In this document: in pieces, positions 2,018 to 54,386 of the stretch | Layout: each line of letters opens with the position of its first letter | Numbering within the stretch: position 1 is the stretch's first letter | Origin: a virus | DNA length: 64,000 nt | IMG/VR virus record: IMGVR_UViG_3300020182_000020 | Direction: 5' to 3' (one strand) | Position numbers and translations under genes: made by a program | The notes under the pieces: model-generated | What the model saw: the letters and a program-made list of their open reading frames with translations, nothing else | What the model was told of the DNA's origin: nothing | The model's database searches: none

Positions 2018-2027
2018 GGAATAAATT

Positions 2028-2678: not shown

Positions 2679-2679
2679 A

Positions 2680-4441: not shown

Positions 4442-5126
4442 ATCTGGGACTGTTAACCGAATAAGTCCAGAGGCTCCTGTTCCTGTTTTAGACTGGCCAG
4501 GAATTGAAACGTGCCGAGAAGGTATGGCAATGAACGTTGCTGCCAATTTAGAAAATTTTGGAGCAGAGATCGATCTTCATACGAGGTATGTCGAACAAAA
4601 AATAAGATATTTTAGTGGACAGCACCAGCTGTTGCGAGTTGACATCCCTCTAGTTGGATGGCATCCGTTTGATCCCGAAGAAATCTCAGGCGAGAACCCC
4701 GCCGCCGTTGTCATCTCTGATTATAACAAAGGGTTTATATCTTATGACGCGATAAGATATATTCGAGCTAACTGCCATTGCCCAATGTTTATCGATACCA
4801 AGAAGCCAGACCTCAAACAATTTGACGGAATTATTACTAAAATAAATACTGATGAGTGGAACCGTAGAACAAGCGACCATCCTACTCCAGATCAATTAAT
4901 CGTTACTGGAGGTGGCGGTAAGATTATATCTGGCAAAGAAGAATGGATTCCTCCTGAAATTGAGATGGTTGATGTCTGTGGCGCCGGAGATACTTTCTTT
5001 GCTGCATTTATTGTGAAGTTTCTTCAAACAAATAGTAAGTCTGACGCAATCGAATTTGCCATGAGAGCTGCAGCAGTTACTGTACAACACTTAGGAGTTT
5101 ATGCTCCGACACTGGAGGAGATATGA
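4374..5126 (+). CDS. hldA: RfaE/HldE domain I-like PfkB kinase (heptose-7-phosphate kinase-like)
   Basis: NRISPEAPVPV, AMNVAANL, ISDYNKG, VDVCGAGDTF. Confidence 0.8.
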   Translation: MMKLPQTPLKIILIGETCWDAYRSGTVNRISPEAPVPVLDWPGIETCREGMAMNVAANLENFGAEIDLHTRYVEQKIRYFSGQHQLLRVDIPLVGWHPFDPEEISGENPAAVVISDYNKGFISYDAIRYIRANCHCPMFIDTKKPDLKQFDGIITKINTDEWNRRTSDHPTPDQLIVTGGGGKIISGKEEWIPPEIEMVDVCGAGDTFFAAFIVKFLQTNSKSDAIEFAMRAAAVTVQHLGVYAPTLEEI

Positions 5127-5476
5127 CTAGATTAGAAGGAACCGTGAAGAAAGCGTGGGGTTCAGAAATAATCTGGGCGACCAACGAACTGTATTGCGGA
5201 AAATTAATGAACTTTAATTCTGGTTGTTCGTTTTCTATGCACATGCATAAAGAGAAAGACGAAACTTGGTACGTGTTGTCTGGCAAATTTATTCTAAAAT
5301 TAATAGACACGTCTGACGCTAGCGTTTCAGAAAAAATCCTAAATACTGGCGATGTATGGAGAAACGAACCTATGCTCCCGCATCAGCTCTACTGTCTCGA
5401 ACAGGGCACTATTATCGAGGTGTCGACACCAGATTCTGTAGAGGACAATTACAGAGTAGGAAAAGGAAAAAATTAA
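5123..5476 (+). CDS. Cupin-domain sugar isomerase-like protein
   Basis: VKKAWGSEIIW, SMHMHKEKDETWYV, PHQL, EVST. Confidence 0.75.
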   Translation: MTRLEGTVKKAWGSEIIWATNELYCGKLMNFNSGCSFSMHMHKEKDETWYVLSGKFILKLIDTSDASVSEKILNTGDVWRNEPMLPHQLYCLEQGTIIEVSTPDSVEDNYRVGKGKN

Positions 5477-5478
5477 AA

Positions 5479-5760
5479 ATGAGATTTATTGTCGACATAG
5501 ATAAGACTATCTGTTTAACATTAGACGGTAATTATTATACTGCATTGGCGATTAGAAAACACGTTGAAAAAATAAACGCTTTATATGACGCGGGGCATGA
5601 GATTATTTACTGGACAGCTCGCGGCGCTGTCTCTGGAAAAGACTGGAGCGCACTTACTAAGCAACAATTAGAAGACTGGGGTGTTCGGTATACAGAATTA
5701 TGGATGAACAAACCGCATTATGATGTGTGGGTAGATGATAAGGCGGAATGGATATTTTAA
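5479..5760 (+). CDS. Small HAD-superfamily phosphatase
   Basis: DIDKT (DxDxT), YWTARG, KPHYDVWVDDK; true start taken as ATG at 5479. Confidence 0.75.
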   Translation: MRFIVDIDKTICLTLDGNYYTALAIRKHVEKINALYDAGHEIIYWTARGAVSGKDWSALTKQQLEDWGVRYTELWMNKPHYDVWVDDKAEWIF

Positions 5761-5761
5761 A

Positions 5762-6463
5762 ATGAAAGTAAAAATTATTGTAATGCACGGAAATGGGATT
5801 TCAGAAAGAGGTTATCACGCCTGTCGCCGTAGTGCAAGAAAGGTTAATGGCCCTGCGTTTTGGATGAACATATTTAAAGCTATACGCCCATGGGAAATTG
5901 AAGATCTGCAACAGAAGTATGGGTTATCATACACATATCCGACGAAAGAACCTAGGCTTGATTTTTCAACAGGCCTGAGTCTTTCGCCCTATGTTGGAAA
6001 TACCGATACTCGTATTGCTTGTTTCTTTTCTCATTATCTCCTCTGGCAAGAATGCGTGGAAACACAAGAGCATTTTCTTATTCTAGAACATGATGTGGAA
6101 TTTGTTAATAAAGTAAATTGGGATCATCTAGAAAAATCTAAGTACCAGATCATTGGGATTAACGATCCTCGAGGCGCAACGAGGCGCTCGCAAGAATATC
6201 ATAACTTAGCACAAGCAAGAAATTACACAATTGCTCCTCCTCCATATATTGATGAACAACATGTGCCACAAGGACTTGCAGGCAATTCAGCCTACTATAT
6301 AAAACCCCTTGGTGCACAAAAACTTATTGAGCTGGTTGATCAGCATGGCATTTGGCCCAACGACGCTATTATGTGCAAACAACTACTACCTGGAATGTTG
6401 GGTCAAACTAAAAAATATTATACAAAAGTGCAAGGGTTAGTTTCAACTACTACTACATTATGA
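5762..6463 (+). CDS. Glycosyltransferase family 25-like
   Basis: IACFFSHYLLWQEC, LILEHD, AYYIKPLGAQKL. Confidence 0.75.
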   Translation: MKVKIIVMHGNGISERGYHACRRSARKVNGPAFWMNIFKAIRPWEIEDLQQKYGLSYTYPTKEPRLDFSTGLSLSPYVGNTDTRIACFFSHYLLWQECVETQEHFLILEHDVEFVNKVNWDHLEKSKYQIIGINDPRGATRRSQEYHNLAQARNYTIAPPPYIDEQHVPQGLAGNSAYYIKPLGAQKLIELVDQHGIWPNDAIMCKQLLPGMLGQTKKYYTKVQGLVSTTTTL

Positions 6464-7107
6464 AATCATTCGTAATAACTATAAAAGACAATAGTCTTTC
6501 TGAGCAAGCTGCAGAAAGATGTATTCGATCGATGCCAGATTTTAAAGTATTAAAGTTCTACGGCATTACTCCAAAGGACAACCCTCTAGAGATATTGAAA
6601 ATAGAATCAATACCTGTTTCTGGGTTCCAAGAAAAGTATTCTTATCTTGAGTCCTGCATTGCGGCGTTTCTTTCTCATTATGCTCTATGGAAAAAATGTG
6701 TAGAGGATAAAGTAGAATATCAAATCTTCGAGCACGATGCTTTCTGCGTTGGAGAGTTACCTGAGTTTATAAATTATGACAAAGCGATATCTTTAGGCAA
6801 ACCAAGTTATGGCAACTTCAACACCCCACTAATGTTAGGAACTAATCCTCTTGTTTCCAAGCGTTACTTTCCTGGGGCGCATGCGTATCGAATAAAACCA
6901 GCTGGCGCTAAAGAGCTGATCGCCCGCGCAAAAGTTGATGGTGGGCCAACAGACGTTTTCTTACACCTTGACAAATTCCCTTGGTTGCAAGAGTATTACC
7001 CTTGGCCAGTAGTCGCAAAAGACTCTTTCACCACAATACAGAAAACGCAAGGTTGTTTGGCGAAACATAATTGGCATGATGGGGTAGGTTATGAAATCGT
7101 ACGATAA
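6460..7107 (+). CDS. Glycosyltransferase family 25-like
   Basis: FLSHYALWKKC, IFEHDA, GAHAYRIKPAGAKELI; paralog of upstream gene. Confidence 0.75.
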   Translation: MKSFVITIKDNSLSEQAAERCIRSMPDFKVLKFYGITPKDNPLEILKIESIPVSGFQEKYSYLESCIAAFLSHYALWKKCVEDKVEYQIFEHDAFCVGELPEFINYDKAISLGKPSYGNFNTPLMLGTNPLVSKRYFPGAHAYRIKPAGAKELIARAKVDGGPTDVFLHLDKFPWLQEYYPWPVVAKDSFTTIQKTQGCLAKHNWHDGVGYEIVR

Positions 7108-7753
7108 AGTTTTTGTTACAGGATGTGATGAAAAGACTGAGTGGCAGCTAGAATGGTTCCACAAAAATTTTAAAAAACACAATAAAACAATCCCTATTGT
7201 TTTTGCAGACTTTGGCGTTTCTGCAGAAATGCTTGAATGGATACACAAGATAAGCACATTTGATGATATAATTAGTATTCCTAAACAAAGAGTAAACGGC
7301 TGGTTTCTCAAGCCCAAAACACTGCAACTTATCAACGCAAAAAAACTCTGTTGGCTTGATACTGATTGCGAAGTTCTAGAAAATATCGAAGACATATGGA
7401 ATCATTGCGAACCAGACAAGCTCGGGATGTGCGAAGACAGACCATGGTCTAAACGTTCTGGAGAGAAATGGTTTAATTCGGGTGTTATGGCAATTATAGA
7501 TAAACCAAGAATATTAAACGCATGGATCGATGCATGCGCCAAGAAACCAAATCAAGGCGATCAAGAAGTTTTACATTTTATGATGGGTAATCCGCTTAAT
7601 CAGGTTACTCACATCTGCCAGCTGCCTCATATGTATAACTGGCTTCGAATTGATGTTCAACACGATTCTACCGATAGCAATAAAAAAAGAATTATGCACT
7701 GGACTGGTGAGAAAGGTAATAACATAATAAGGAAAAAAATATATAATGGCTGA
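7091..7753 (+). CDS. GT8-like / nucleotide-diphospho-sugar transferase
   Basis: WLDTD (DxD), FNSGV, GDQEVL, IMHWTG. Confidence 0.7.
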   Translation: MKSYDKVFVTGCDEKTEWQLEWFHKNFKKHNKTIPIVFADFGVSAEMLEWIHKISTFDDIISIPKQRVNGWFLKPKTLQLINAKKLCWLDTDCEVLENIEDIWNHCEPDKLGMCEDRPWSKRSGEKWFNSGVMAIIDKPRILNAWIDACAKKPNQGDQEVLHFMMGNPLNQVTHICQLPHMYNWLRIDVQHDSTDSNKKRIMHWTGEKGNNIIRKKIYNG

Positions 7754-20351: not shown

Positions 20352-20376
20352 TATAAATAGTTTAATAGTATTTATT
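20352..20376. promoter_or_regulatory. Overlapping opposed late promoters (TATAAATA plus 20352-20359; AATAAATA minus 20369-20376)
   Basis: T4 late consensus between divergent gp4 and gp48. Confidence 0.6.
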
Positions 20377-43234: not shown

Positions 43235-43242
43235 TATAAATA
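43235..43242 (+). promoter_or_regulatory. T4-type late promoter TATAAATA
   Basis: Exact consensus in the intergenic gap before the fibre genes. Confidence 0.7.
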
Positions 43243-43284: not shown

Positions 43285-45243
43285 ATGAAAAAACAAATTG
43301 TAACAGTTATTGTTGAAGATGCAACAGTAGTCGATGTTGTACAACTTGAGCAGACAATTGTTAGTAGAGTTAAAGTAGGCACTTCTAATGACCCTGTGCA
43401 AATTCCCGTTGGATGGTCTTCTAGCGAAAATGTAGTAATACAAGATAATCCGTCTATAGATCTACTGTTGAAAACTTCAGTAGACAAAGTTGTTCTTGGA
43501 AATACCGTTCTTCTGGGTGATACTCAGAGATATCTTTATAATGATTCTTCTTTTGTCACGAACATAATCGATTCAGATTATGTTAATGCAATACTGGCCG
43601 CAAACAACGTCGAAGAATCAGATGATTCTGCTATATCAGACGAAGTTCGTTTTGGTAGGTTCAATCCATTAGTTTGGGATTCGGGCGGCGCTCAATATGG
43701 TGGAGCAGATTACAGAATTATAGCTGGGTATCAACCTGATCCCGAATTTCCCGACGAAGTCGTTTCGGTTCGAGACGCAGAATTTCTACCGTATGGCACT
43801 GAAGGTTTTAATAAATTTAGACTTTTGCTCGCCACGTTTACTCCTACTATTGGAACAGGAGCGCCGCAGACGATCAATTTAAATTGGGATGTTTTGGCTA
43901 GTGGATTTTCTATATCTATCTCAAACCCTTTAGATTTTGTAAGTCGGTATGTGGATGAAGTTGTTGATCTAGAAACATCATCGACAGGACAGTTTCCTAT
44001 GAGCGTAGGAAATATAATTAAATCCGAGAATTTTAATACTACCGGACCATCTCCAATTCCATTTGGAGGTTCAACTTGGTCACAAGCTTGGACCACTGAC
44101 GCAGACTGGTATTTAAATACATTACCAAACAGAGGGGACGAGGCGTATGTTACTGATTTTTACAGTCTCCGCGATGTGGTTAATATTAACGGTTCGGAAG
44201 AAATTACCGGCGGCGCAACTAATCAAACCAAAGGCGGGAGTGCGTCTTTATGGGTTAGGCTTAAAGATACTACGGGATTTGAATATGGAGGGTTCGTCGA
44301 GCCGTATGATAATGGCGCTCGAATAAATTTCAATTGGCGTAACGCTACTTTAAACGTATCGATCAATAATGTAAGCGGCAGTAATTTTTTAAAAACTTAT
44401 ACTAGCACAACTTATACTACATCAATAACAAACCTTACTGATATAAACAACGCAGAAGGAGCATTAGCTAGCGGGGACCCAGACGCTCCAGCACATATTC
44501 CAAAGTATCAACCTGCTTTCGTTACCGCTCTTGGCAATTTAGATGCTGGGTATACCGGACCATTTACGTCTACAGAAGATAAAAATAGATGGCCTGACGC
44601 TTGGAGCTATGGCGGAAACCCGACTCAACGAGCACTAGGTAGTGGTACATGGACCCTTTGGCCTCCTGTTCATAAAGACGATCATCCTCAAATTTCAAGC
44701 GGGCCCAGTGTAAATTACAGACACCTTTATGCTGCAGCTAGGATTACACGTCCTCTTGGAATAGCAGGATCTTTTGATGGTGATTCGGCAGGAGGATTAG
44801 ACCCAGCTAAAGGCGCTTCATATATTGAGAGAATTTATAGCACCAACAATTCATTTAACGCTTCATGGGTATATTATTCTTTTTGGCTTTTTACTTCTTC
44901 ATTAGCCTCGCCACCTACAAATTCTGATGTTGTTTCAGGATCAGATTATAAGTCGCCCGATGTAACACAACTTGGAAATCAAATAAATAACCTTAGTGGT
45001 TTTATTAATAACCCAGGAGCTGGACCACAAGCGTTTTGGTTTGGTATTAGAGCTTCTGCGACTCAACCAAATTTTTTCAGAACAGGGTCCAGCGCGTCTT
45101 TATTATCGGATGTTACACAAACCAATTCTACTGTTTTTTTACAGCCATCGCCAACGCCAGCAAATTATCTCGCAGAAGAATATAGTTTATATGGATTTGT
45201 TTTACAACCAGGATCTACTTACGTGAGTATAGGAAGACAATAA
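43285..45243 (+). CDS. Putative virion fibre/adhesin protein, paralog A
   Basis: 652 aa; shares N- and C-terminal blocks with the next gene. Confidence 0.55.
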   Translation: MKKQIVTVIVEDATVVDVVQLEQTIVSRVKVGTSNDPVQIPVGWSSSENVVIQDNPSIDLLLKTSVDKVVLGNTVLLGDTQRYLYNDSSFVTNIIDSDYVNAILAANNVEESDDSAISDEVRFGRFNPLVWDSGGAQYGGADYRIIAGYQPDPEFPDEVVSVRDAEFLPYGTEGFNKFRLLLATFTPTIGTGAPQTINLNWDVLASGFSISISNPLDFVSRYVDEVVDLETSSTGQFPMSVGNIIKSENFNTTGPSPIPFGGSTWSQAWTTDADWYLNTLPNRGDEAYVTDFYSLRDVVNINGSEEITGGATNQTKGGSASLWVRLKDTTGFEYGGFVEPYDNGARINFNWRNATLNVSINNVSGSNFLKTYTSTTYTTSITNLTDINNAEGALASGDPDAPAHIPKYQPAFVTALGNLDAGYTGPFTSTEDKNRWPDAWSYGGNPTQRALGSGTWTLWPPVHKDDHPQISSGPSVNYRHLYAAARITRPLGIAGSFDGDSAGGLDPAKGASYIERIYSTNNSFNASWVYYSFWLFTSSLASPPTNSDVVSGSDYKSPDVTQLGNQINNLSGFINNPGAGPQAFWFGIRASATQPNFFRTGSSASLLSDVTQTNSTVFLQPSPTPANYLAEEYSLYGFVLQPGSTYVSIGRQ

Positions 45244-48003
45244 TTGGAAAATGATAAAACAAAAGTAGACAAAATTGTTGTTGGGATCATTAATGACTCC
45301 GCGCAAATTCCTGTTGGGTGGGCGTCAAGCGAAATTGTATCTGTGGGTCAAGGCAATTCAATCAGAGGCGATATTGTAAATGATCCTGTAGAGGTAAAGA
45401 TTAAAGCAGGAACGCCAGACCGACAAGGTCGCACAACGATTAAACGATACAATGAAGAAACCTTTATCACAAAAGTGGTCGATTCCGCTTATCTGAAGAC
45501 CTTTATAGATTCTGATGTAGTGGAAGATAGCGCTATATCCAATGTAACCTTGTTTGGTAAATTCAGCCCTCTTGTTTGGGATTCGGGTGGTCCTGATTAC
45601 GGCGGAGCAGATTACAGAATTATAACTGGCTATCAACCTGATCCAGAAGTTCCTGATGACGTCATTAACGTTCGAGACGTTGAATATGTCCCTGATATTG
45701 AAGGCGCCGGAGAAAATTTTAAATTTAGACTACGTCTAGCAAGTTTTAATCCGGTGTTTTTAGGGGGAGAAGAATATAACGTACAAATTCTTAATTGGGA
45801 CGATTCGGCCACTGGTTTTACGGTACTTGTAGAAAACCCAGACGACTTTAAAAGCAGATATATTACTGAAGTTGTTGCAATGTCCGTCGCGCGAATACCT
45901 GCTAGTAACTACCCATCAGCTGAACAGCCTAATTCAGATATCTTTAATATAACCAATGCTTTTTATGGGCGATGGCCTGATATGCCTGCCTGGAAACCGA
46001 ACGGTACTTACGGACTGGCTAGCGCTAGCCTTGATTATTTCGGAGAATACTTACCGAATCTAAATCCATTCAACCCCGCCAACCTAGAAGACTCCGCTTA
46101 TAGGGCAGATTCAGACACTTCCGAAGAACATAGATTCAGAATTAATCAATTTACAACAACTGGGCCGCGCCTTGATTCCGCAAATGGTTCTCCAGTTACT
46201 CCTGCAGGAGGAGTAGACTGGGCCCAGACGTTCAATTTCACTAATACTGCTTTTGTTCGTACTGATGAAAATGGTGCAGAGGCTACTTATAATCAGGTCG
46301 GAGATGAATACGACGATTCTGCTAACACCAATGGTTTCTTGTATACAGACGGACAATACGGATATTGGGGAGGCCCAATACTGTATGAAGCGAGTTATGA
46401 TACACAGCAGCTTACTTCCCGAACGATGGCGAAAAGGATACGCACAACCTATCCACCGCCCCCTTTTAATATAAATAGTACGAATGGCCTTTTTAGTTCT
46501 TATTTTAATGGCCAATATGATAAAACGGACCAAGGGTCGTTCAACTTTCCAAACAAAGTATATAATTTTAATTATTCACGTCCTTTCAAACTAGTTTTTA
46601 AAGATAACACAGGAGCTGTATTTTCAGCGGGGCCTTTTATGTTTGCGTGGAAATGCGCTCATCTTTGGAATACTATTACCCCATGTCTCGGAAAAACTTT
46701 TTTGCAAACATACGAATCGACAACCTATGAAGTTGGAGTTGCCCACCTAACTAATCAAAACCTTTTTCAAGGAGACGCGCATTCTCCACATATACAGATT
46801 CGAGATAGCGCCAATGATTTTTATGCGGGTAGACCGTTTGATGGTGCTGGTAATAATCCACAACCAGTAACACCAGGACAAATTACTTGTGCTATAGGTG
46901 AATACTCGGGTTATTTGTATCAAGACAGCACTAGTGCGTTTTCTGGGATCACCGGCAACCCTGTTAAGCGTTATCTCTTCGACCCCAACGATATTGACTC
47001 AAGTTGGACCCAGATCAACCCTTATGATAATATACAAAACGAGCGGGCATACTATTCAAAAGAACAGTGGCTACCTGGATTTGAGCGCTGGCCTGATGCG
47101 TTGGCGTGTGCTGGCACTTTATCTAATACTCACAACTTGGGAACAGGAACTTGGACCTTTTCTTCGCCTTGTCATCATACCGATAGAGGCCCAGTGGACG
47201 CTAACTACAATTACTATAACTCGGGGAGCGATCCCCTTTATGGCCCCAAATTACAACGAGAGCTTCATCACTGGGGATTGATAACAAGGCCATCAGGAAT
47301 AGATCCTTCTAGTTACACAATTGCAGGAGAGCCTCCTGCGCCGCCTGGAGGACCGCTACCTCCGGAAGCGCCGAACTGGGTATCAGGTGTACCACCAATT
47401 GGTTACACAAGATCGCGGGGCGAACTTTCGACCCACTGGCAAACTTATATCAGGCCAGCGATGGAAGCAGCAGGCACTTATGAATGGGATCCAGAAGTGA
47501 ATGGCTTTGATTTTCTTGGGGCCAGCTATAAGAACCGCATGCGGTCTTGGTATGATTTAAGTAAATTGTATACTGAATTTCTCTATCCTTCATTTTGGTT
47601 GTTCGGACCAGGAGATTTGACGACTCCTACTAACGCGGATATTGTCGTGGGTGATGAATATAGACCAGAAGTAACTTCTCTCGCTAATCAGACAAGGGTT
47701 TTTTCAGGATACGTTAATAATATTTCAGCAGCCCCCCAAGCGTTTTGGTTCGGCATTAGAGAGCACAGTGACAATTATTCGTTCGCTGCAGGCCCAGCAA
47801 CTAACTATCATACTGCAGTGCCTCAACCAACTTCGTTTAGGACAGGTTCTAGCCCAGCGTTACTTTCTGATGTTACGACAGTAACTCGTGTGGTTAAATT
47901 AGGAGCTATTCCAAACCCAAATATTCTTTATAAGGCAGAACCATTTACTTTGTATGGATTTGTTTTACAACCAGGAACCACTTACGTGAGCATAGGACCT
48001 TAA
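45244..48003 (+). CDS. Putative virion fibre/adhesin protein, paralog B
   Basis: 919 aa; TTG start directly after the upstream TAA, AGGA RBS; paralog with large insertions. Confidence 0.55.
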   Translation: MENDKTKVDKIVVGIINDSAQIPVGWASSEIVSVGQGNSIRGDIVNDPVEVKIKAGTPDRQGRTTIKRYNEETFITKVVDSAYLKTFIDSDVVEDSAISNVTLFGKFSPLVWDSGGPDYGGADYRIITGYQPDPEVPDDVINVRDVEYVPDIEGAGENFKFRLRLASFNPVFLGGEEYNVQILNWDDSATGFTVLVENPDDFKSRYITEVVAMSVARIPASNYPSAEQPNSDIFNITNAFYGRWPDMPAWKPNGTYGLASASLDYFGEYLPNLNPFNPANLEDSAYRADSDTSEEHRFRINQFTTTGPRLDSANGSPVTPAGGVDWAQTFNFTNTAFVRTDENGAEATYNQVGDEYDDSANTNGFLYTDGQYGYWGGPILYEASYDTQQLTSRTMAKRIRTTYPPPPFNINSTNGLFSSYFNGQYDKTDQGSFNFPNKVYNFNYSRPFKLVFKDNTGAVFSAGPFMFAWKCAHLWNTITPCLGKTFLQTYESTTYEVGVAHLTNQNLFQGDAHSPHIQIRDSANDFYAGRPFDGAGNNPQPVTPGQITCAIGEYSGYLYQDSTSAFSGITGNPVKRYLFDPNDIDSSWTQINPYDNIQNERAYYSKEQWLPGFERWPDALACAGTLSNTHNLGTGTWTFSSPCHHTDRGPVDANYNYYNSGSDPLYGPKLQRELHHWGLITRPSGIDPSSYTIAGEPPAPPGGPLPPEAPNWVSGVPPIGYTRSRGELSTHWQTYIRPAMEAAGTYEWDPEVNGFDFLGASYKNRMRSWYDLSKLYTEFLYPSFWLFGPGDLTTPTNADIVVGDEYRPEVTSLANQTRVFSGYVNNISAAPQAFWFGIREHSDNYSFAAGPATNYHTAVPQPTSFRTGSSPALLSDVTTVTRVVKLGAIPNPNILYKAEPFTLYGFVLQPGTTYVSIGP

Positions 48004-48006
48004 AAT

Positions 48007-51000
48007 ATGGCTGATTCAGATTTTTATGGATTAACACGTAATACATGGCCTGGAACATGGAGTCCAAGCACAGAAGCACCCATTGTTCTCGATAAAGAGA
48101 CACGAGGTGGGTTACGGTCAATCATTGGAAGTAACGGAGACCGTCTTGAAGATATAACTGGCCAGAGATTAGTCTCTGGTATGTTTGTATTTGTCGAGAA
48201 AGATTATTCTATTGACAGTGTTGGCGGTAGTATATGGACGTTAGATTCTGTTCCAACTACATTTCAGTCAGGGTACTATCAGTACAAAAACGATTCAGAT
48301 AGAAACGAGATAACAGGGTCTCTTCAAAACGAAAGGCAATTCTGGTCTACAATAAATTTAGAATTTGATTCTTCTGATGTATTGGCATTAATTGACTCAG
48401 ACTATATCAAAGGTTTCGTCGATTCAGATTACATTAAGGGTTTTATTGACTCTGATTACATAAAAGGTTTTGTCGATTCAGATTACATTAAGGGTTTTAT
48501 TGACTCAGACTATATCAAGGGTTTCGTCGATTCTGATTACATCAAAGGGTTTATTGACTCAGACTATATCAAAGGTTTCGTCGATTCTGATTACATCAAA
48601 GGGTTTATTGATTCCGATTATCTTAAAGGATTCATAGACTCAGATTATATAAAGGGGTTTGTCGATTCTGATTACATAAAAGGGTTTGTTGACTCCGATT
48701 ACGTTAATGCATTTACTGCAGTTTTTGTAGATTCAGATTATATTCAGGCTCGACAAATCTTCGGGCTTGATTCGGCTTTAACGATTGACCTTATCGATTC
48801 TGATTACATCCAAGCTCGACAAATCCTCGGCGGAGGCAGCGGCGGCGGAATTGATTCAGCTTTAACAATTCAATTAATCGATTCTGATTACATCCAAGCT
48901 CGACAAATCCTTGGTGGTGGTAGCGGTGGAGGTATTGATTCAGCGTTAACAATACAACTCATCGACTCAGATTATATCAACGCTCGAGTAGATGCTGCTA
49001 GTATTCCTGATGTTTTGGATTCTTCGGAAATCATAAATCTTATAGGTTTAACTGTTGACTCGGATTACATCAACGCTAGAGTAGATGCAGTAGCTGGTGG
49101 AGGCATTGATTCAGCTTTAACAATTCAATTAATCGATTCTGATTACATCCAAGCTCGACAAATCCTTGGTGGCGGTAGTGGCGGAATTGATTCGGCGTTA
49201 ACGATACAATTGATTGATTCTGATTACATTAACGCTAGAGTAGATGCAGTAGCTGGTGGAGGCATTGATTCAGCTTTAACAATACAGTTAATAGACTCGG
49301 ATTACATCCAAGCTAGGCAAATCATTGGTGGTCAGGGCGGATTAGATTCTGCTCTTACTATTCAGCTCATCGACTCGGATTACATTAATGCTAGAGTAGA
49401 TGCAGTAGCAGGGGGAGGAATAGATTCTGCACTAACAATACAGTTAATAGACTCTGCTTATATTACTTTAAGATCAGAAAATTTTATTGACGCTAAGATA
49501 CAGGTTTTAGACATCGGCGATATTGTCGGTACTAACGGAAGTGTAGGTCAAATCCTGAGTAGTTTGGGAACTGGTGACGCGCAATGGGTGAATATAGATT
49601 CTTCTATTTCTAATGTTGTTGACTCTGCCTTTATTGAAAATATTATCGACTCAAATTATATTCAAGCTCGCCAAATCATTGGTGGTCAGGGTGGATTAGA
49701 TTCTGCTTTAACAATACAACTCATCGATTCTGACTACATCAATGCTCGAGTAGACGCAGTAGCAGGCGGAGGTATTGATTCTGCTTTAACAATACAACTC
49801 ATCGACTCTGACTACATCAACGCTAGAGTAGATGCAGTAGCTGGTGGAGGCATTGATTCAGCTTTAACAATACAACTCATCGATTCTGACTACATACAGG
49901 CTCGGCAGGTTGACTTGCAGCGAGACTCAGCTTTTATTACGAATATTATCGACTCGGATTACATCAATGCTCGAGTAGACGCAGTAGCAGGTGGAGGTAT
50001 TGATTCCGCTTTAACAATTCAATTGATTGATTCTGATTATATTCAAGCTCGACAGGTTGATCTACAACGAGACTCTGCGTTCATTACGAACATTATCGAC
50101 TCTGACTACATCAACGCTAGAGTAGATGCAGTAACAGGAGGAGGAATTGATTCAGCGTTAACAATACAACTTATTGACTCGGCTTATATTACTTTAAGAT
50201 CAGAAAATTTTATTGACGCTAAAATACAAGTCTTAGATGTTGGAGACATTGTCGGGGTTAATGGTGCTGCTGGTCAAATCCTGAGTAGTTTGGGAACTGG
50301 TGACGCAGAATGGGTATCATTAGATTCTTCTATTTCTAATGTTGTTGACTCTGCCTTTATTGAAAATATTATCGACTCAGATTATATACAGGCTCGTCAA
50401 ATAGATCTGCAGCGAGACTCTGCTTTTATTACGAATATAATTGACTCTGCTTATATTCAATTCCGTCAGATTGATTACCTTGATTCTAGTTTAACAATTC
50501 AGTTGATTGACTCTGCTTATGTACAAGCCAGACAAATAGATCTGCAGCGAGACTCTGCCTTTATTACGAATATTATCGACTCTGCTTATATTCAGTTTAG
50601 ACAGATTCAGATTGATTATCTAGATTCATCATTAACAATTCAGCTCGTCGACTCTGCTTATGTACAAGCCAGACAAATAGATCTGCAGCGAGATTCTGCT
50701 TTTATAACAAATATAATTGATTCTGATTATATCAATCTAAGAGTTGACGCGACAATAGACTCAGCAGAAGTATTCAAAATAATCGACTCAGATTATATTA
50801 CTTTAAGATCAGAAAATTTTATTGACGCTAAAATACAAGTCTTAGATGTTGGAGACATTGTCGGGGTTAATGGTGCTGCTGGTCAAATCCTGAGAAGTTT
50901 AGGTACAGGAGATGCAGAATGGGTGAATATAGATTCATCTATTGGAGCGGTTATAGATTCTGCATATATCAACGCTAGAGTAAACGCGTCTTTTGATTCG

Positions 51001-53394
51001 GCGTTAGTAATTAATCTTATCGACTCTGCTTATATTCAATTCCGTCAGATTGATTACCTTGATTCTAGTTTAACAATTAATCTTATCGACTCTGCCTATA
51101 TTCAAGCTCGACAGTCGTTAATTGATTCTTCTTCTATTATTTCTCTTATTGACTCTGCTTATATTCAAGCTCGACAGATTGATTACCTTGATTCTAGTTT
51201 AACAATTCAATTGATTGACTCTGCTTATATTCAAGCTCGACAGTCGTTAGTTGATTCTTCTTCTATTATTTCTCTTATTGACTCCGCGTATATTGTAAAC
51301 AGGTCTACAGATTATATTGAAGCTAGTATTCAAGCTCAAGATTTAGGAGACATTGTTGGCGCTGCTGGATTGTCCGGTCAGTTTTTAACTAGCCTTGGAA
51401 CTGGTGATGGGTCTTGGATTTCAATATCAAGCGTTATTGATTCTGCTTATGTCCAATTAAGACAAGTAGATTTACAACGAGACTCTGCTTTTATTACGAA
51501 TATAATTGACTCGGCTTATATACAAGCTCGTCAATCTTTAGACTCTGATTTAGTTATTGCTCTAGTAGATTCTGATTATGTAAAGGCTAGGCAGACAAAT
51601 TATCTAGATTCTGCTTTAACAATACAACTCATTGATTCTGCTTATATTCAAGCTCGACAATCTTTAGACTCTGACCTAGTTATTGCTCTAATAGATTCTG
51701 CTTATATTCAAGCTCGACAATCTTTAGACTCGGATCTAGTTATTGCTCTAGTGGATTCTGCTTATATTCAAGCTCGACAGTCGTTAATTGATTCTTCTTC
51801 TATTATTTCTCTTATCGATTCTAATTATGTTGTTAATAGATCAGCTGATTACATTGAAGCTAATATTCAAGCTTTAGATTTGGGCGATGTAGTAGGTGCG
51901 GCTGGTTTATCAGGACAGTTTTTAACTAGTCTGGGAACTGGTGATGGTTCTTGGGTTTCTATTACGAATATTATCGACTCTGCATATGTACAATTAAGAC
52001 AAGTAGATTTGCAACGAGACTCTGCTTTTATTGTTAATATAATCGACTCTGCCTATGTTCAAGCTCGTCAATCTTTAGACTCTGATTTAGTTATTGCTCT
52101 AGTGGATTCTGATTACGTTCGAGCCAGAGAATCTATTGATTCTGCTAGGGTAATTACATTAATCGACTCTGCTTATGTTCAAGCTCGTCAATCTTTAGAC
52201 TCTGATTTAGTTATTGCTCTAGTAGATTCTGATTATGTAAAGGCTAGGCAGACAAATTATCTAGATTCTGCCTTATCAATTCAACTTATCGATTCTGATT
52301 ACGTTCGAGCCAGACAGCTTTTAGTTGATTCTGCTTCTATTATAAACCTTGTCGATTCTAATTATGTTGTAAACAGGTCTACAGATTATATTGAAGCTAG
52401 TATTCAATCTTTAGATTTAGGGGACGTGGTTGGCGCAGCTGGATTGTCTGGTCAGTTTTTAACCAGTCTCGGTACAGGCGATGGCTCTTGGGTTTCAATA
52501 TCAAGCGTTATTGATTCTGCTTATGTCCAATTAAGACAAGTAGACTATTTGGATTCTGCGTTATCGATCCAATTAATTGACTCAGCCTATATTCAATTCC
52601 GTCAGATTGATTATCTAGATTCTAGTTTAACGACTCAGCTGATAGACTCTGCTTATATTCAAGCTCGTCAATCTTTAGACTCTGACCTAGTAAATAATTT
52701 AATTGACTCTGCTTACATTCAGGCGCGACAGAAACTTGTAGATTCTGCGTCTATTATAAATCTTGTTGATTCTGCATATATTCAATTAAGACAGATAGAT
52801 TACTTAGACTCTTCATTAACAATTCAATTGATTGACTCTGCATATGTACAAGCTCGACAATCGGTTGATTCTTCTGCTATTATTTCTCTTGTAGATTCTG
52901 CTTATGTTATAAACCGATCCGACGATTATATTGGAGCGCAGATACAGGCACAAGATTTAGGAGACATAGTTGGTGCAGCTGGATTGTCTGGCCAGTACTT
53001 GAGAAGTTTAGGTACAGGAGACGGTGAATGGATTACTATCGCCGCACCGAGTTATATAAACCTAAATTATGATTCATCTATAAATAATGATTCAACGGAT
53101 ATCGTAGTAAGAATGCCAGTTGCAGGTAAAATTACACACTTATCATTGCAGCTTAATGTAGATACGATTTCGGCGGGACAAACCCTAGCATTTAACCTTA
53201 AAAAGAATGGTGTTTTGACAGGAGAATCAATTTCTATTGCAGTTGATTCGGCAGGATCTTTTGGAAATTCTAGTTCTATAACAAATATAAATTTTGTGGC
53301 AAACGATTTGATTGCGGTCAACCTTGTTCCTTCTGGTAGCACTAGTGTTACTTCATTACACAAGGGTTTGATACGTTTATTAGAAAACATATAA
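48007..53394 (+). CDS. Giant Asp-Ser repeat protein, probable segmented trimeric fibre
   Basis: About 120 DS dipeptides (manual count), seven DxGD..G..GQ.L.SLGTGD..W modules, C-terminal beta-sandwich. Confidence 0.65.
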   Translation: MADSDFYGLTRNTWPGTWSPSTEAPIVLDKETRGGLRSIIGSNGDRLEDITGQRLVSGMFVFVEKDYSIDSVGGSIWTLDSVPTTFQSGYYQYKNDSDRNEITGSLQNERQFWSTINLEFDSSDVLALIDSDYIKGFVDSDYIKGFIDSDYIKGFVDSDYIKGFIDSDYIKGFVDSDYIKGFIDSDYIKGFVDSDYIKGFIDSDYLKGFIDSDYIKGFVDSDYIKGFVDSDYVNAFTAVFVDSDYIQARQIFGLDSALTIDLIDSDYIQARQILGGGSGGGIDSALTIQLIDSDYIQARQILGGGSGGGIDSALTIQLIDSDYINARVDAASIPDVLDSSEIINLIGLTVDSDYINARVDAVAGGGIDSALTIQLIDSDYIQARQILGGGSGGIDSALTIQLIDSDYINARVDAVAGGGIDSALTIQLIDSDYIQARQIIGGQGGLDSALTIQLIDSDYINARVDAVAGGGIDSALTIQLIDSAYITLRSENFIDAKIQVLDIGDIVGTNGSVGQILSSLGTGDAQWVNIDSSISNVVDSAFIENIIDSNYIQARQIIGGQGGLDSALTIQLIDSDYINARVDAVAGGGIDSALTIQLIDSDYINARVDAVAGGGIDSALTIQLIDSDYIQARQVDLQRDSAFITNIIDSDYINARVDAVAGGGIDSALTIQLIDSDYIQARQVDLQRDSAFITNIIDSDYINARVDAVTGGGIDSALTIQLIDSAYITLRSENFIDAKIQVLDVGDIVGVNGAAGQILSSLGTGDAEWVSLDSSISNVVDSAFIENIIDSDYIQARQIDLQRDSAFITNIIDSAYIQFRQIDYLDSSLTIQLIDSAYVQARQIDLQRDSAFITNIIDSAYIQFRQIQIDYLDSSLTIQLVDSAYVQARQIDLQRDSAFITNIIDSDYINLRVDATIDSAEVFKIIDSDYITLRSENFIDAKIQVLDVGDIVGVNGAAGQILRSLGTGDAEWVNIDSSIGAVIDSAYINARVNASFDSALVINLIDSAYIQFRQIDYLDSSLTINLIDSAYIQARQSLIDSSSIISLIDSAYIQARQIDYLDSSLTIQLIDSAYIQARQSLVDSSSIISLIDSAYIVNRSTDYIEASIQAQDLGDIVGAAGLSGQFLTSLGTGDGSWISISSVIDSAYVQLRQVDLQRDSAFITNIIDSAYIQARQSLDSDLVIALVDSDYVKARQTNYLDSALTIQLIDSAYIQARQSLDSDLVIALIDSAYIQARQSLDSDLVIALVDSAYIQARQSLIDSSSIISLIDSNYVVNRSADYIEANIQALDLGDVVGAAGLSGQFLTSLGTGDGSWVSITNIIDSAYVQLRQVDLQRDSAFIVNIIDSAYVQARQSLDSDLVIALVDSDYVRARESIDSARVITLIDSAYVQARQSLDSDLVIALVDSDYVKARQTNYLDSALSIQLIDSDYVRARQLLVDSASIINLVDSNYVVNRSTDYIEASIQSLDLGDVVGAAGLSGQFLTSLGTGDGSWVSISSVIDSAYVQLRQVDYLDSALSIQLIDSAYIQFRQIDYLDSSLTTQLIDSAYIQARQSLDSDLVNNLIDSAYIQARQKLVDSASIINLVDSAYIQLRQIDYLDSSLTIQLIDSAYVQARQSVDSSAIISLVDSAYVINRSDDYIGAQIQAQDLGDIVGAAGLSGQYLRSLGTGDGEWITIAAPSYINLNYDSSINNDSTDIVVRMPVAGKITHLSLQLNVDTISAGQTLAFNLKKNGVLTGESISIAVDSAGSFGNSSSITNINFVANDLIAVNLVPSGSTSVTSLHKGLIRLLENI
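48391..48714 (+). repeat. Tandem 27-bp repeat, about 12 copies, encoding (F/L)(I/V)DSDYIKG
   Basis: Visible in sequence and translation; copies differ mostly at synonymous sites. Confidence 0.9.
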
Positions 53395-53397
53395 ATA
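53390..53397 (+). promoter_or_regulatory. T4-type late promoter TATAAATA
   Basis: Exact consensus at the fibre stop codon, ahead of 53436. Confidence 0.7.
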
Positions 53398-53435
53398 ATT
53401 ACGATTATTATATCATAACTTAAGGATAGTAAATA

Positions 53436-54386
53436 ATGAGCAGTACAAAAAAAGATGTATCGACTGAAGTGGCACCTTATGAAGAGGTGATGAAAGAGCT
53501 TGCTTTGATCACAGACAAGCACGAAGTTCATTTACCTGTTTCTAGTATTTTTGGTAGAGGCGAACTTGCTTTAACCAAAAGTTTTGGAGGTAGGACTCTA
53601 GCAGAAAATGCTGAGATGGTAGACAAAGCGTTTGAAAATACAAACGAGTTGCAGAATATTTGGAATCGTTCACATTCGCAATGGGATTGGAAACATATCA
53701 ATCTCTCTTATCATAGTGATTTTAAAAATGTTAGACAGATTGCTGCTGAAATGAGTCGAAAGAAAATGGCTCTTGATGAAGCAAAATGGCGCCAGCTTAA
53801 AAATGAAGTTAAGCTTAAAAAGATGCAAGAGAAATTGGCTTCTGGTAAATTAGACAAATGGAAAGAGATTGATATCAAGATCCAAATTGGCCAGCAATTA
53901 GAAGGTAATGCACAGGGCATGGCGTACATTGAAGGAGCCATGAAAGATGTTCTTGCTCTCAACGAACTTTATGAAGAGATGAAGAACAAATCCGAAATTG
54001 ATGGATTTACAGAAGCAGATTTTGAGAAACAAGAGTCAAAGTCTCATTTAAAAAGAAGCTTGGTCCAATGTATTCGAGACGTGCGACAACAAGGTTCTAT
54101 TACTAAAGGCGAACAAGAATACTTAGAGCAGATTGGTGTCAATCCTACAAAGATGCAAGCAAGAATTCGACAGTATGTTGCTGACGAAGAAGCGTCTTCT
54201 GATTGGTCGACGACTTCTTTGCACGAGTTTGTTGCTGGTGTTGTTGATGAATTGATTGATGTGTTAAAGGTCGACCGTACACGTATGGAACTTATGGGCT
54301 TTAGTGCAGATCATTTAGATTATATTACTCATGACCAATCTGTAGCTCATAAATCTATGCTAGAATATAAATTCGAATCAGAGTAA
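53436..54386 (+). CDS. Conserved coiled-coil hypothetical protein leading the paralog array
   Basis: 316 aa helical; NRSHSQW, RQIAAEMSRKK.AL.E. Confidence 0.6.
   Translation: MSSTKKDVSTEVAPYEEVMKELALITDKHEVHLPVSSIFGRGELALTKSFGGRTLAENAEMVDKAFENTNELQNIWNRSHSQWDWKHINLSYHSDFKNVRQIAAEMSRKKMALDEAKWRQLKNEVKLKKMQEKLASGKLDKWKEIDIKIQIGQQLEGNAQGMAYIEGAMKDVLALNELYEEMKNKSEIDGFTEADFEKQESKSHLKRSLVQCIRDVRQQGSITKGEQEYLEQIGVNPTKMQARIRQYVADEEASSDWSTTSLHEFVAGVVDELIDVLKVDRTRMELMGFSADHLDYITHDQSVAHKSMLEYKFESE

What the first reader, a model, noticed from the sequence alone, without database searches (positions are those of the whole stretch)
48007..53394. Architecture of the DS-repeat protein: a segmented fibre that records its own expansion
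Seen: a ~125-aa unique head; about 12 FIDSDYIKG units; then graded repeat families (GGIDSALTIQL/IDSDYINARV, LQRDSAFITNI, YLDSSLTIQL, SLDSDLVIAL) replacing each other along the gene; seven DxGD.VG..G..GQ.L.SLGTGD..W modules; and a ~120-aa beta-rich tail. Known: G..GQ.L...G.G...W motifs are typical of trimeric phage fibres. Inference: a very long, strongly acidic fibre made by serial local duplication. I recognise no named family for this repeat.
Basis: partly seen in the sequence, partly recalled or inferred. Interest (0 to 1): 0.7.

Follow-up and report, generated by a model that had tools for sequence, protein, structure and literature searches.

The report
Giant Asp-Ser repeat phage fibre
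This is a real 1,795-residue gene of an uncultured marine T4-like phage, most likely a very long three-chain virion fibre whose shaft is built from about 114 copies of an unnamed 9-residue Asp-Ser unit, a repeat shared by hundreds of ocean phage fibres for which no structure has been solved.

Summary
ORF 48007-53394 (+) encodes 1,795 aa (194 kDa, pI 4.05) with:
- a 128-aa head;
- 12 back-to-back FIDSDYIKG nonads;
- about 51 pairs of xDSxLxIxL + IDSxYIxxR units joined by variable linkers;
- seven D.GD.VG..G..GQ.L.SLGTGD..W modules;
- a 120-aa beta tail.

It sits in the late baseplate/fibre module of a marine T4-like myovirus. A trimer model passes its controls at the last module and the tail. 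The tail is a jelly roll like the knobs of other trimeric viral fibres. The head is conserved among relatives whose tips differ.

Three other assemblies give the same array with no gaps, so misassembly is unlikely. A near-identical strain carries one extra 22-aa unit.

The repeat matches no Pfam family, no named PHROG and no solved structure. It does occur in at least 430 protein clusters from metagenomes.

The shaft fold is unresolved. It resembles the beta-layer nonads of alpha/beta coiled coils in part, but a beta-structured shaft fits equally well.

This scan had already noted the same Asp-Ser fibre repeat on another phage genome (e1-5388876).

Verdict: a new variant of a known kind (phage fibre), of moderate interest.

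The parts
48007..53394 (+). Whole gene of the Asp-Ser repeat fibre (1,795 aa, P0001; stop at 53392-53394)
   Evidence: ORF list and translation. The identical protein is on three other assemblies.
48007..48390 (+). N-terminal head, aa 1-128: probable attachment domain
   Evidence: 38-57% identical to the N-termini of 14 of 120 homologues, most of which have a different C-terminus. 47% identical in L004/L005. No Pfam or PHROG hit.
48391..48714 (+). Array of 12 back-to-back nonads (FIDSDYIKG), aa 129-236. The DNA period of 54 nt fits better than 27 nt.
48715..53031 (+). Main shaft, aa 237-1675: about 51 B-A unit pairs (xDSxLxIxL + IDSxYIxxR + linker of 2-10 aa), interrupted by 7 modules
   Evidence: Unit parsing, tandem and direct repeats, positional gradient.
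49510..49587 (+). Module 1 core (aa 502-527)
   Evidence: Regex match. Modules 1-3 form one subgroup (TLRSENFIDAKIQVLD...).
50236..50313 (+). Module 2 core (aa 744-769)
50845..50922 (+). Module 3 core (aa 947-972)
51340..51417 (+). Module 4 core (aa 1112-1137)
   Evidence: AF2 draws a beta hairpin, QFLTS/GSWIS, with pLDDT 66-73.
51877..51954 (+). Module 5 core (aa 1291-1316)
52414..52491 (+). Module 6 core (aa 1470-1495)
52954..53031 (+). Module 7 core (aa 1650-1675), part of the confident trimer interface
   Evidence: The confident inter-chain contacts cover residues 1647-1687.
53032..53391 (+). C-terminal tail, aa 1676-1795: jelly-roll beta sandwich, probable receptor-binding knob
   Evidence: AF2 model. 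VIA-align Z 9.2-10.3 to viral and TNF-like jelly rolls and to phage fibre tips. BFVD hits to fibre and collagen-head proteins. Trimer contacts at 1699-1795. Shared only with P0002 and P0003.
43235..43242 (+). TATAAATA (T4-type late promoter consensus) 43 nt upstream of the first gene of the probable operon P0122-P0123-P0001
   Evidence: Pattern search. The three genes abut: 45243/45244 and 48003/48007. The late-promoter reading comes from knowledge of T4.
43285..48003 (+). Two upstream paralogues (652 and 919 aa). Each carries a single B-A Asp-Ser pair near its N-terminus, and they share a C-terminal domain.
   Evidence: Translations, motif scan, 45% identity between them. A homologue lies directly upstream of the repeat gene in L004/L005.

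Best explanation
P0001 is a late-expressed homotrimeric virion fibre of an uncultured marine T4-like myovirus.

Shown:
- An intact gene whose array is reproduced in independent assemblies.
- A position inside the baseplate/fibre gene block.
- A head conserved among relatives with different tips.
- A shaft of 114 Asp-Ser units with seven roughly 50-aa modules.
- A C-terminal jelly roll.
- A trimer model that passes its controls at the last module and the tail.

Inferred:
- The 128-aa head docks the fibre on a conserved virion site, most likely the baseplate periphery.
- The roughly 1,550-aa shaft forms a thin three-chain rod. Each Asp-Ser marks a tight turn or helix cap that restarts a short structural element every 9 residues.
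- The seven beta-hairpin modules act as trimer 'knots' that hold the three chains in register, and possibly as hinges.
- The jelly-roll knob makes the first, long-range, reversible contact with the host surface.
- Scaling from known fibres gives a length of roughly 140-230 nm.

The shaft fold is not settled. [quoted passage not shown]

The shaft evolves by gain and loss of whole units and blocks, which changes fibre length without touching the anchor or the tip.
For: Context:
- T4-like gp48, gp5, gp6, wedge and DUF4815 (gp7-like) genes lie just upstream. The gp6 homologue is 39.6% identical to phage C48C1 and 35% to pelagiphage HTVC008M.
- The order P0122-like gene, repeat fibre, P0125-like gene, then an array of ~390-aa genes recurs on 155-156 kb contigs of two other phages.
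- A late-promoter motif lies upstream of the operon.

Trimer:
- Three copies of aa 1470-1795 scored 0.77 against 0.00 for the best of 3 controls.
- The mark was reached by 21 of 30 proteins solved as pairs of one chain and by 0 of 23 solved as single chains. These counts hold only roughly, because the calibration used two copies.
- The runs agree in at least 42% of their contacts, and the partner's pLDDT is at least 60.
- Confident contacts lie only in residues 1647-1795.
- Trimeric jelly-roll knobs have been solved, so the pass may partly reflect likeness to them.

Tip:
- Z 10.3-9.2 (rmsd 2.4-2.8 A over 102-114 residues) to viral jelly rolls, to 4-1BBL and to the tail-fibre tip of Agrobacterium phage 7-7-1.
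- Z 8.7 to the short-fibre binding domain of cyanophage A-1(L), and Z 8.2 to PRD1 P5.
- BFVD hits are to tail-fibre, collagen-head and Mtd_N proteins.

Anchor and tip logic: the head is shared by 14 homologues, the tail by only 2.

Family:
- 569+ hits in the word-indexed search, and 430 clusters at E<=1e-3 in the exhaustive search.
- All carry Asp-Ser units spaced 9 apart.
- Some end in Peptidase_S74, Mtd_N or endosialidase-type domains typical of trimeric fibres.

Selection: identical 9-mer peptides differ at 3-4 of 27 nt.

Assembly: three other assemblies match with 3-13 SNPs and no gaps over 9.3 kb.

Length change: a strain 99.7% identical carries a 66-nt insertion equal to one unit pair. 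The orthologues P0002 and P0003 have 3 and 5 modules instead of 7.
Against: - There is no experimental evidence that the protein is in the virion, and no cultured phage carries it.
- The Asp-Ser part of the trimer model had no confident contacts.
- The AF2 monomer of aa 1100-1500 is unreliable, with pLDDT 41.
- The tail model is only moderate, with pLDDT 59, and jelly rolls are a very common fold.
- The attachment site is inferred from gene order alone.
- The head has no detectable similarity to any known baseplate-binding domain.
Confidence: 0.75

Rival explanations
1. It is a fibre, but attached to the neck or collar (a fibritin/whisker analogue) or to the head, not to the baseplate. It would then act as an environmental sensor or a fibre-retraction aid rather than as the primary receptor binder.
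For: In T4 the order is gp12, wac, gp13. In Synechococcus phage ACG-2014d a 2,058-aa structural protein sits directly upstream of gp13. The segmented design, rod pieces separated by loops or knots, recalls T4 fibritin (my knowledge, not tested).
Against: No neck genes are present in the window. The gene is flanked by other fibre-like and receptor-head genes. There is no Pfam hit to fibritin or a foldon at E<=1. E+K is only 2.7% of residues, which is unlike heptad coiled coils.
Confidence: 0.15
2. The Asp-Ser dipeptide is mainly a sequon: the roughly 120 serines are O-glycosylated by the sugar enzymes the phage encodes upstream, giving a sugar-coated fibre.
For: The window encodes GT25 (x2), GT8-like, PfkB kinase, cytidylyltransferase-like and methyltransferase genes at 372-7753. 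This was proposed by an earlier first-reader note (e1-5345109). 122 of 225 serines follow Asp.
Against: - The conserved unit is a whole 9-18 residue pattern, L-[IVL]-D-S-A-Y-V-Q-A-R, seen over 10,216 units in 245 proteins, not only the DS pair.
- No glycosyltransferase family is recorded within 10 kb of the homologues in L003-L005.
- The sugar genes lie 40 kb away among early or auxiliary genes.
- An earlier follow-up on another genome also rejected the sequon reading (e1-5388876). That is not independent evidence.
Confidence: 0.1
3. The 9-residue units, at least the 12 in the head array, form a calcium-binding RTX-like beta roll, so that fibre stiffness depends on calcium.
For: The period of 9 is the same. 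GFIDSDYIK can be laid on GGxGxDxUx, sharing G1, D6 and U8. The best PDB hit of aa 120-262 is the RTX region of a family I.3 lipase (2z8x/2zj7) at E = 0.04-0.09. The protein is very acidic.
Against: That E-value is not significant. The GGxG turn that binds calcium is missing. There is no hit to the Pfam RTX repeat family at E<=1. Gly and the second Asp are absent from the roughly 100 later units.
Confidence: 0.05
4. The array is an assembly artefact, with repeats collapsed or chimeric, and its length and order are not real.
For: One related scaffold (L008) has a 100-N gap inside the array and a one-unit length difference. All the data are short-read metagenome assemblies.
Against: Three other assemblies reproduce all 5.4 kb with 3-13 SNPs and no indel. 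The longest near-identical DNA repeat is 91 nt at 96% identity, and most copies are 60-90% identical. The frame is open for 1,795 codons.
Confidence: 0.03

Closest known systems
Alpha/beta coiled coils: beta-layer nonads of Thermosinus Tcar0761 (MATKDDIAN x14), Actinobacillus OMP100, and the Streptococcus prophage tail-fibre hyaluronidase HylP1, PDB 2C3F (Hartmann et al. 2016, PMC4786415)
   Same: Both are homotrimeric fibres with a 9-residue period. Read as b1-b2-b3-e-f-g-a-b-c, FIDSDYIKG has hydrophobic b1, b2 and a, an Asp N-cap at b3 and a Gly C-cap at c. LIDSAYIQ lines up with the AATKAYVD of 2C3F. Most known beta-layers are in phage fibres.
   Different: Position e is Ser, not Lys/Arg. 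Position g is Tyr/Leu, not Asp/Glu/Gln. b2 is bulky (I/L more often than A/V). Some units put Arg at b2 (QRDSAF). Spacings other than 9 show no heptad phase. E+K is only 2.7%. There is no sequence hit to any solved beta-layer protein.
Knobbed trimeric virus fibres with repeat shafts: adenovirus fibre, reovirus sigma1, PRD1 P5 (triple beta-spiral shaft plus jelly-roll knob)
   Same: Both have an N-terminal anchor, a long shaft of short pseudo-repeats and a C-terminal trimeric jelly-roll knob (PRD1 P5 Z 8.2). The pair grammar here, two short elements at fixed spacing followed by a variable loop, resembles the strand-turn-strand-loop repeat. The A-type unit has a beta-like period-2 hydrophobic pattern.
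   Different: There is no conserved Gly/Pro in the turn. The repeat is 18 residues plus linker rather than about 15. There is no sequence or fold match for the shaft. This shaft is about five times longer and is interrupted by seven extra modules.
T4 long tail fibres (gp34-gp37) and T4 fibritin (gpwac)
   Same: All are late genes of a T4-type phage, trimeric, segmented rods with domains or loops between rod pieces, and very long (the T4 long tail fibre is about 145 nm; my knowledge).
   Different: Here one polypeptide replaces four. There is no detectable homology, no foldon and no gp37-type tip. The closest cultured relatives, C48C1 and HTVC008M, lack an Asp-Ser array.
Mosaic marine phage fibres ending in a Peptidase_S74 intramolecular chaperone (e.g. 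P0078, 2,039 aa)
   Same: They contain the same units, including IDSAYVQARQVDLQRDSAYIANIVDSAYVQARQ, and belong to the same sequence family.
   Different: In those proteins the Asp-Ser units are a minority element mixed with SEGTNLYYT repeats, Ig-like domains and an S74 chaperone. P0001 is almost purely Asp-Ser units, has seven modules and ends in a jelly roll with no S74 domain.

Membership tests
Alpha/beta coiled coil (beta-layer nonads, Hartmann 2016) | Layers spaced 9 (or 6) residues apart | tested here: met
   58 DS-DS spacings equal 9, and there are 12 consecutive nonads. Spacing 9 is the mode (27%) over 245 homologues.
Alpha/beta coiled coil (beta-layer nonads, Hartmann 2016) | b1 and b2 hydrophobic, with b2 preferably small (A/V); b3 = D/N/T/S acting as N-cap | tested here: inconclusive
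   b3 = Asp always, but this is by construction of the anchor. b2 family-wide is I 31, V 25, L 24, A 12%. b1 is L 26% plus mixed residues. Some units have Arg at b2.
Alpha/beta coiled coil (beta-layer nonads, Hartmann 2016) | Position e = K/R and position g = D/E/Q, closing the capping network | tested here: not met
   e = Ser (invariant). g = Tyr (36% of all units, 88% of A-type) or Leu/Glu. Tyr at g does occur in 2C3F.
Alpha/beta coiled coil (beta-layer nonads, Hartmann 2016) | Helical segments between layers keep heptad or hendecad phase (spacings 13, 16, 20, 23, 27...) | tested here: not met
   In P0001, spacing 13 occurs 13 times, but 17, 11, 14 and 12 occur 9, 8, 7 and 5 times. Family-wide there is no enrichment of spacings equal to 2 or 6 modulo 7.
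Alpha/beta coiled coil (beta-layer nonads, Hartmann 2016) | Parallel homotrimer through the repeat region | tested here: inconclusive
   The trimer model passes, but its confident contacts stop at residue 1647, so none lie in the Asp-Ser region.
RTX nonapeptide beta roll (GGxGxDxUx) | GGxG calcium-binding turn in each 9-mer, and a match to the Pfam RTX repeat model | tested here: not met
   The units read G-F-I-D-S-D-Y-I-K. There is no Pfam RTX hit at E<=1. The PDB RTX lipase match has E = 0.04, not significant.
Triple beta-spiral shaft (adenovirus/reovirus/PRD1 type) | Repeat made of strand, tight turn with conserved Gly/Pro, strand, then a variable surface loop | tested here: inconclusive
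   Fixed 9-residue spacing inside a pair and a variable 2-10 aa linker after it. The A-type unit has period-2 hydrophobicity but the B-type has a period of about 3. There is no conserved Gly/Pro in the turn, and no usable structural model of the shaft.
TNF/C1q-like trimeric jelly-roll knob | Eight-stranded jelly roll that trimerises about the fibre axis | tested here: met
   AF2 tail model (pLDDT 59 overall, 65-85 in the tail). Z 9.3-9.9 to 4-1BBL, and 8.2-8.7 to EDA-A1, APRIL, Cbln1, Pgp3 and ExsFA. Confident inter-chain contacts at 1699-1795. This shows fold-level likeness only, with no sequence similarity.
Beta-trefoil (for the seven modules, as a three-chain trefoil) | A roughly 40-aa trefoil subdomain detectable by sequence or fold | tested here: inconclusive
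   The module profile matches the designed FGF-1-derived trefoils Phifoil and Symfoil at whole-chain E = 1e-5. That value sums three identical repeats, each with an independent E of about 1. AF2 shows only one hairpin per module.
Phage tail fibre (generic) | Late gene in the baseplate/fibre block; conserved N-terminal anchor and variable C-terminal tip; homotrimer | tested here: met
   Presence in the virion is not testable here.
T4 fibritin (gpwac) | Heptad coiled-coil segments and a C-terminal foldon | tested here: not met
   No Pfam fibritin hit at E<=1. The C-terminus is a 120-aa jelly roll. E+K is 2.7%.

The most novel reading that the evidence does not exclude
The Asp-Ser shaft is a trimeric fibre fold with no solved representative. 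Either it is a natural alpha/beta coiled coil with more than 100 consecutive beta-layers using a new Asp-Ser/Tyr capping network, or it is a wholly new 18-residue rod repeat. In either case it would be clamped every 165-242 residues by three-chain beta knots that may be intermolecular beta-trefoils. A further untested possibility is that these repeated knots are docking sites for the twelve anchor-bearing receptor heads encoded just downstream. That would make the protein a rack for a multi-receptor kit.
Probability: 0.3. Interest if true: 0.7.

Novelty: new variant of a known kind. Interest (0 to 1): 0.45.

Why it matters
Marine T4-like phages are among the most abundant viruses in the ocean, yet their host-recognition fibres are almost unknown. 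This repeat builds the shafts of fibres in at least 430 protein clusters from ocean metagenomes. It has no Pfam family, no annotation and no structure.

A solved fragment would give a model for hundreds of giant unannotated phage proteins. It would also settle whether regular alpha/beta coiled coils exist at this scale in nature. A Pfam-style model of the 18-residue pair and of the roughly 50-aa module would let these proteins be recognised as fibres.

The one-unit length difference between near-identical strains suggests that fibre length itself is a fast-evolving trait.

Tried and rejected
Searches that found nothing:
- megablast and tblastn of the gene, its head, its tail and a shaft segment against 50,697 phage records gave no match, even at E<=1.
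- P0125 found nothing there either.
- The search for related loci in IMG/VR with the single protein found no confirmed relative.
- Six-frame searches of the whole C48C1 and HTVC008M records gave one weak hit (E = 1.7e-4, 76 aa) and none, respectively.

Matches judged spurious or non-specific:
- The Pfam DUF2682 match (32.3 bits against a cut-off of 33.3) was not reproduced in seven homologues.
- Hits of the relative P0078 in cyanophages come from its SEGTNLYYT and other domains, not from Asp-Ser units.
- PDB sequence searches with the whole protein, the head array, the unit-pair profile and a 24-sequence shaft profile gave only non-significant hits: designed helical repeats, RTX lipase, PTPN9, and CBA120 TSP2 at E = 0.22.
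- The ESM Atlas feature search gave only unnamed viral clusters scoring 0.80-0.85, below the level to be trusted. It gave nothing for P0125.

Models that did not help:
- The AF2 monomer of aa 1100-1500 drew the shaft as long helices at pLDDT 30-45. I do not count this as evidence for helices.

Other:
- The module profile against longer proteins found 8 proteins, all from this family and none named.
- No whole genome is held for this window.
- Literature searches for DUF2682, nonapeptide repeats in tail fibres, and beta-layers or nonads in tail fibres found no description of this repeat.
Full report
**1. What is there**

The window is a marine T4-like myovirus. It has recognisable gp48, gp53-like, split gp5, gp25/gp6, wedge and DUF4815 (gp7-like) genes at 20-42 kb. 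Its gp6 homologue is 39.6% identical to phage C48C1 (Kyanoviridae) and 35% to pelagiphage HTVC008M.

ORF 48007-53394 (+) abuts two upstream paralogues, at 43285-45243 and 45244-48003. A TATAAATA motif, the T4 late-promoter consensus (my knowledge), lies 43 nt upstream of the first of them. Other copies of the motif sit just upstream of the genes starting at 20376, 29634, 53436 and 57793.

**2. Anatomy**

The product has 1,795 aa, a mass of 193.7 kDa and a pI of 4.05, with D+E 249 against K+R 98. It holds 122 Asp-Ser dipeptides against 28 +/- 4.5 in shuffles.

Parsing at each Asp-Ser gives these parts:
- A 128-aa head.
- Twelve gap-free nonads, [FL][IV]DSDYIKG, at aa 129-236. Their DNA fits a 54-nt period (83% matches) better than a 27-nt period (71%).
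- About 51 strictly alternating pairs: a B-type 9-mer (xDSxLxIxL, no linker), then an A-type 9-mer (IDSxYIxxR), then a linker. The linkers are QS, QSL, QIDY, QVDLQ, VDAVAGGG or QILGGGSGGG.
- Seven modules of about 50 aa (R-S-x-D-Y-I-x-A-x-I-Q-x-x-D-L-G-D-x-V-G-x-x-G-x-x-G-Q-x-L-x-S-L-G-T-G-D-x-x-W). They start at aa 502, 744, 947, 1112, 1291, 1470 and 1650, so they are 165-242 aa apart. Each follows an A-type unit.
- A 120-aa tail.

Each upstream paralogue carries exactly one B-A pair near its N-terminus. This suggests the pair is a discrete structural element that has been amplified in P0001.

**3. Is the array real?**

- The longest near-identical DNA repeat is 91 nt at 96% identity. Most copies are 60-90% identical.
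- The exact protein is encoded on three other assemblies: ENA ERZ807185 (a 75-kb contig), JGI 3300020185 and ENA ERZ807187. These differ from the window by 3, 13 and 9 SNPs, with no gap in 9.3 kb.
- A fourth scaffold from another sample (L008) is 99.7% identical, and its product matches aa 1208-1795 at 586 of 588 residues. It also shows a 100-N gap inside the array, and a clean 66-nt in-frame insertion equal to one extra LDSALTIQLIDSDYIQFRQIDY unit at about window 51029.
- Misassembly of the window copy is therefore unlikely. The one-unit difference is either real strain polymorphism or a short-read artefact in L008.
- The read-laying route was closed.

**4. How it grew**

- Tandem periods of 27/54, 60-84, 129-159 and 537 nt coexist.
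- For 46 B-A cores, DNA distance rises with distance along the gene: Spearman 0.19, permutation p = 0.0005. The mean distance is 0.29 within 60 aa and 0.37 beyond 800 aa.
- Nearest neighbours are often the equivalent unit of the next superunit (1178 with 1397, 538 with 780, 1261 with 1440). Modules 1-3 and modules 4-7 form two subgroups. Growth was therefore hierarchical: unit, then pair, then multi-pair block, then module-bearing superunit.
- Identical 9-mer peptides still differ at 3-4 of 27 nt. Most copies are old and the peptide is under purifying selection.
- The orthologues P0002 (1,505 aa, 3 modules) and P0003 (1,677 aa, 5 modules) keep the head (55-57% identity) and the tail (51-60%) but differ in shaft length.

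**5. Family**

- The word-indexed search found 569+ proteins. An exhaustive phmmer search of aa 1100-1500 against 1.84 billion cluster representatives found 430 at E<=1e-3, 268 at E<=1e-10 and 77 at E<=1e-30.
- Essentially all have Asp-Ser at a modal spacing of 9. Over 10,216 units the consensus is L-[IVL]-D-S-A-Y-V-Q-A-R. Over 2,383 pairs it is x-L-D-S-A-x-V-I-x-L-I-D-S-A-Y-V-Q-A-R-Q.
- None has a meaningful name.
- A minority carry Mtd_N, Peptidase_S74, endosialidase-spike, YadA-head or DUF4183 domains.
- Many lie on 140-215 kb contigs. Two such phages show the same local gene order.
- Pfam gives nothing above threshold for P0001 or for seven relatives. PHROGs gives four families of unknown function.
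- Cultured phages in the 50,697-record collection show no Asp-Ser array.

**6. Evidence for a trimeric fibre with a knob**

- Three copies of aa 1470-1795 scored 0.77 against 0.00 for the best of three controls.
- The mark was reached by 21 of 30 proteins solved as pairs of one chain and by 0 of 23 solved as single chains. This holds only roughly, because the calibration used two copies.
- The runs agree in at least 42% of their contacts, and the partner's pLDDT is at least 60.
- Confident contacts lie in module 7 and the tail (1647-1795), not in the Asp-Ser region.
- Trimeric jelly-roll knobs are well represented among solved structures, so part of the pass may come from likeness to them.
- The AF2 tail model is moderate: pLDDT 59 overall and 65-85 in the tail.
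- It aligns with viral jelly rolls and TNF-family ligands at Z 9.3-10.3, and with the fibre tip of Agrobacterium phage 7-7-1 at Z 9.2. It aligns with the short-fibre binding domain of cyanophage A-1(L) at Z 8.7 and with PRD1 P5 at Z 8.2 (Foldseek). These values are a little above the stated background of 7-8.
- In BFVD it matches tail-fibre, collagen-repeat-head and Mtd_N proteins.
- The head is shared with 14 relatives and the tail with only two. This is the classic arrangement of a conserved anchor and a variable tip.

**7. The shaft fold is open**

For an alpha/beta coiled coil (Hartmann 2016, read):
- The period is 9.
- Read as b1-b2-b3-e-f-g-a-b-c, FIDSDYIKG has hydrophobic b1, b2 and a, an Asp N-cap and a Gly C-cap.
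- LIDSAYIQ parallels the AATKAYVD of the HylP1 fibre.

Against it:
- Position e is Ser, not K/R, and position g is Tyr/Leu, not D/E/Q.
- Arg occupies b2 in the QRDSAF units.
- Non-9 spacings show no heptad phase.
- E+K is 2.7%, while I+V+Y+T+S+D dominate.
- The A-type unit has a strong period-2 (beta-like) hydrophobic pattern. The B-type unit peaks near period 3.

A strand-turn-strand-loop shaft of the triple beta-spiral kind fits the grammar of fixed spacing plus variable linker, but it lacks the conserved Gly/Pro of that fold. The AF2 monomer (pLDDT 41) is uninformative for the shaft, though it draws each module as a beta hairpin at pLDDT 66-73.

The module profile's match to designed beta-trefoils is intriguing, because a 42-mer trefoil peptide is known to trimerise (my knowledge). 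Per repeat, however, it is at chance level. An RTX-like reading of the head array fails its defining turn.

**8. Mechanism proposed**

- The head anchors the fibre to a conserved virion site.
- The shaft is a thin acidic three-chain rod, roughly 140-230 nm long. This figure is an inference from about 0.9-1.5 A per residue in known fibres.
- The modules keep the three chains in register and may serve as hinges.
- The knob makes the first host contact.
- Unit gain and loss tunes the fibre's reach.
- Glycosylation of the serines remains possible but unsupported.

**9. Relation to earlier notes of this scan**

A follow-up on another phage genome (e1-5388876) reached the same reading of the Asp-Ser motif, as a structural 9-residue fibre repeat whose closest known relatives are beta-layer nonads. 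I had reached this comparison from the literature before seeing that note. It is agreement, not independent evidence.

Noticed in passing
window 53436-54386 (+), P0125: A 316-aa charged protein (D+E 17%, K+R 14%; helical by eye, no prediction run) with no Pfam, PHROG, Atlas or cultured-phage match. It is 75% and 67% identical in two other phages (L004/L005, L003), far more conserved than the fibre itself (31-34%), and always lies downstream of the repeat gene. A TATAAATA motif overlaps the fibre's stop codon just upstream of it. It is a candidate conserved assembly factor or structural partner.
   Followed up: partly
window 43285-45243 and 45244-48003 (+): Two paralogues (45% identity at both ends) share an N-terminal segment containing a single B-A Asp-Ser pair, and a C-terminal ...GFVLQPG(S/T)TYVSIG domain. 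A homologue (31%) lies directly upstream of the repeat gene in L004/L005. They are probably shorter fibres of the same attachment system.
   Followed up: partly
L008:191-256, against window ~51029: A 66-nt in-frame insertion, exactly one LDSALTIQLIDSDYIQFRQIDY unit, in a strain 99.7% identical to the window. The same scaffold has a 100-N gap inside the array.
   Followed up: yes
window modules, e.g. aa 1276-1326 (nt 51832-51984): The module profile aligns with the trefoil subdomain of FGF-1-derived designed beta-trefoils (RSD.HIQ...GQYLR..GT.DG). The whole-chain E is 1e-5, but each repeat alone has an E of about 1.
   Followed up: partly
window 20352, 29620, 43235, 53390, 57744 (+): Five of the eight TATAAATA motifs sit just (7-43 nt) upstream of late structural gene starts, all on the + strand. 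The total count (8 against 5.4 expected) is not itself significant.
   Followed up: partly
L007:4078-10254 (Synechococcus phage ACG-2014d, 2,058-aa structural protein upstream of gp13): This protein has an Mtd_N-like N-terminus and (S/T)EGTNLYYT repeats shared with the mosaic Asp-Ser fibre P0078, but no Asp-Ser array. This shows how shaft repeat types are swapped among marine phage fibres.
   Followed up: partly
window 372-7753 (+): A cluster of sugar-modifying genes: methyltransferases, a cytidylyltransferase-like gene, a PfkB kinase, two GT25 genes and one GT8-like gene. Its link to the fibre is unknown.
   Followed up: partly
window 50001-54000: G+C drops to 0.356-0.364 from about 0.40 across the 3' two thirds of the repeat gene. 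This probably reflects the Ile/Asp/Ser/Tyr-rich units.
   Followed up: no
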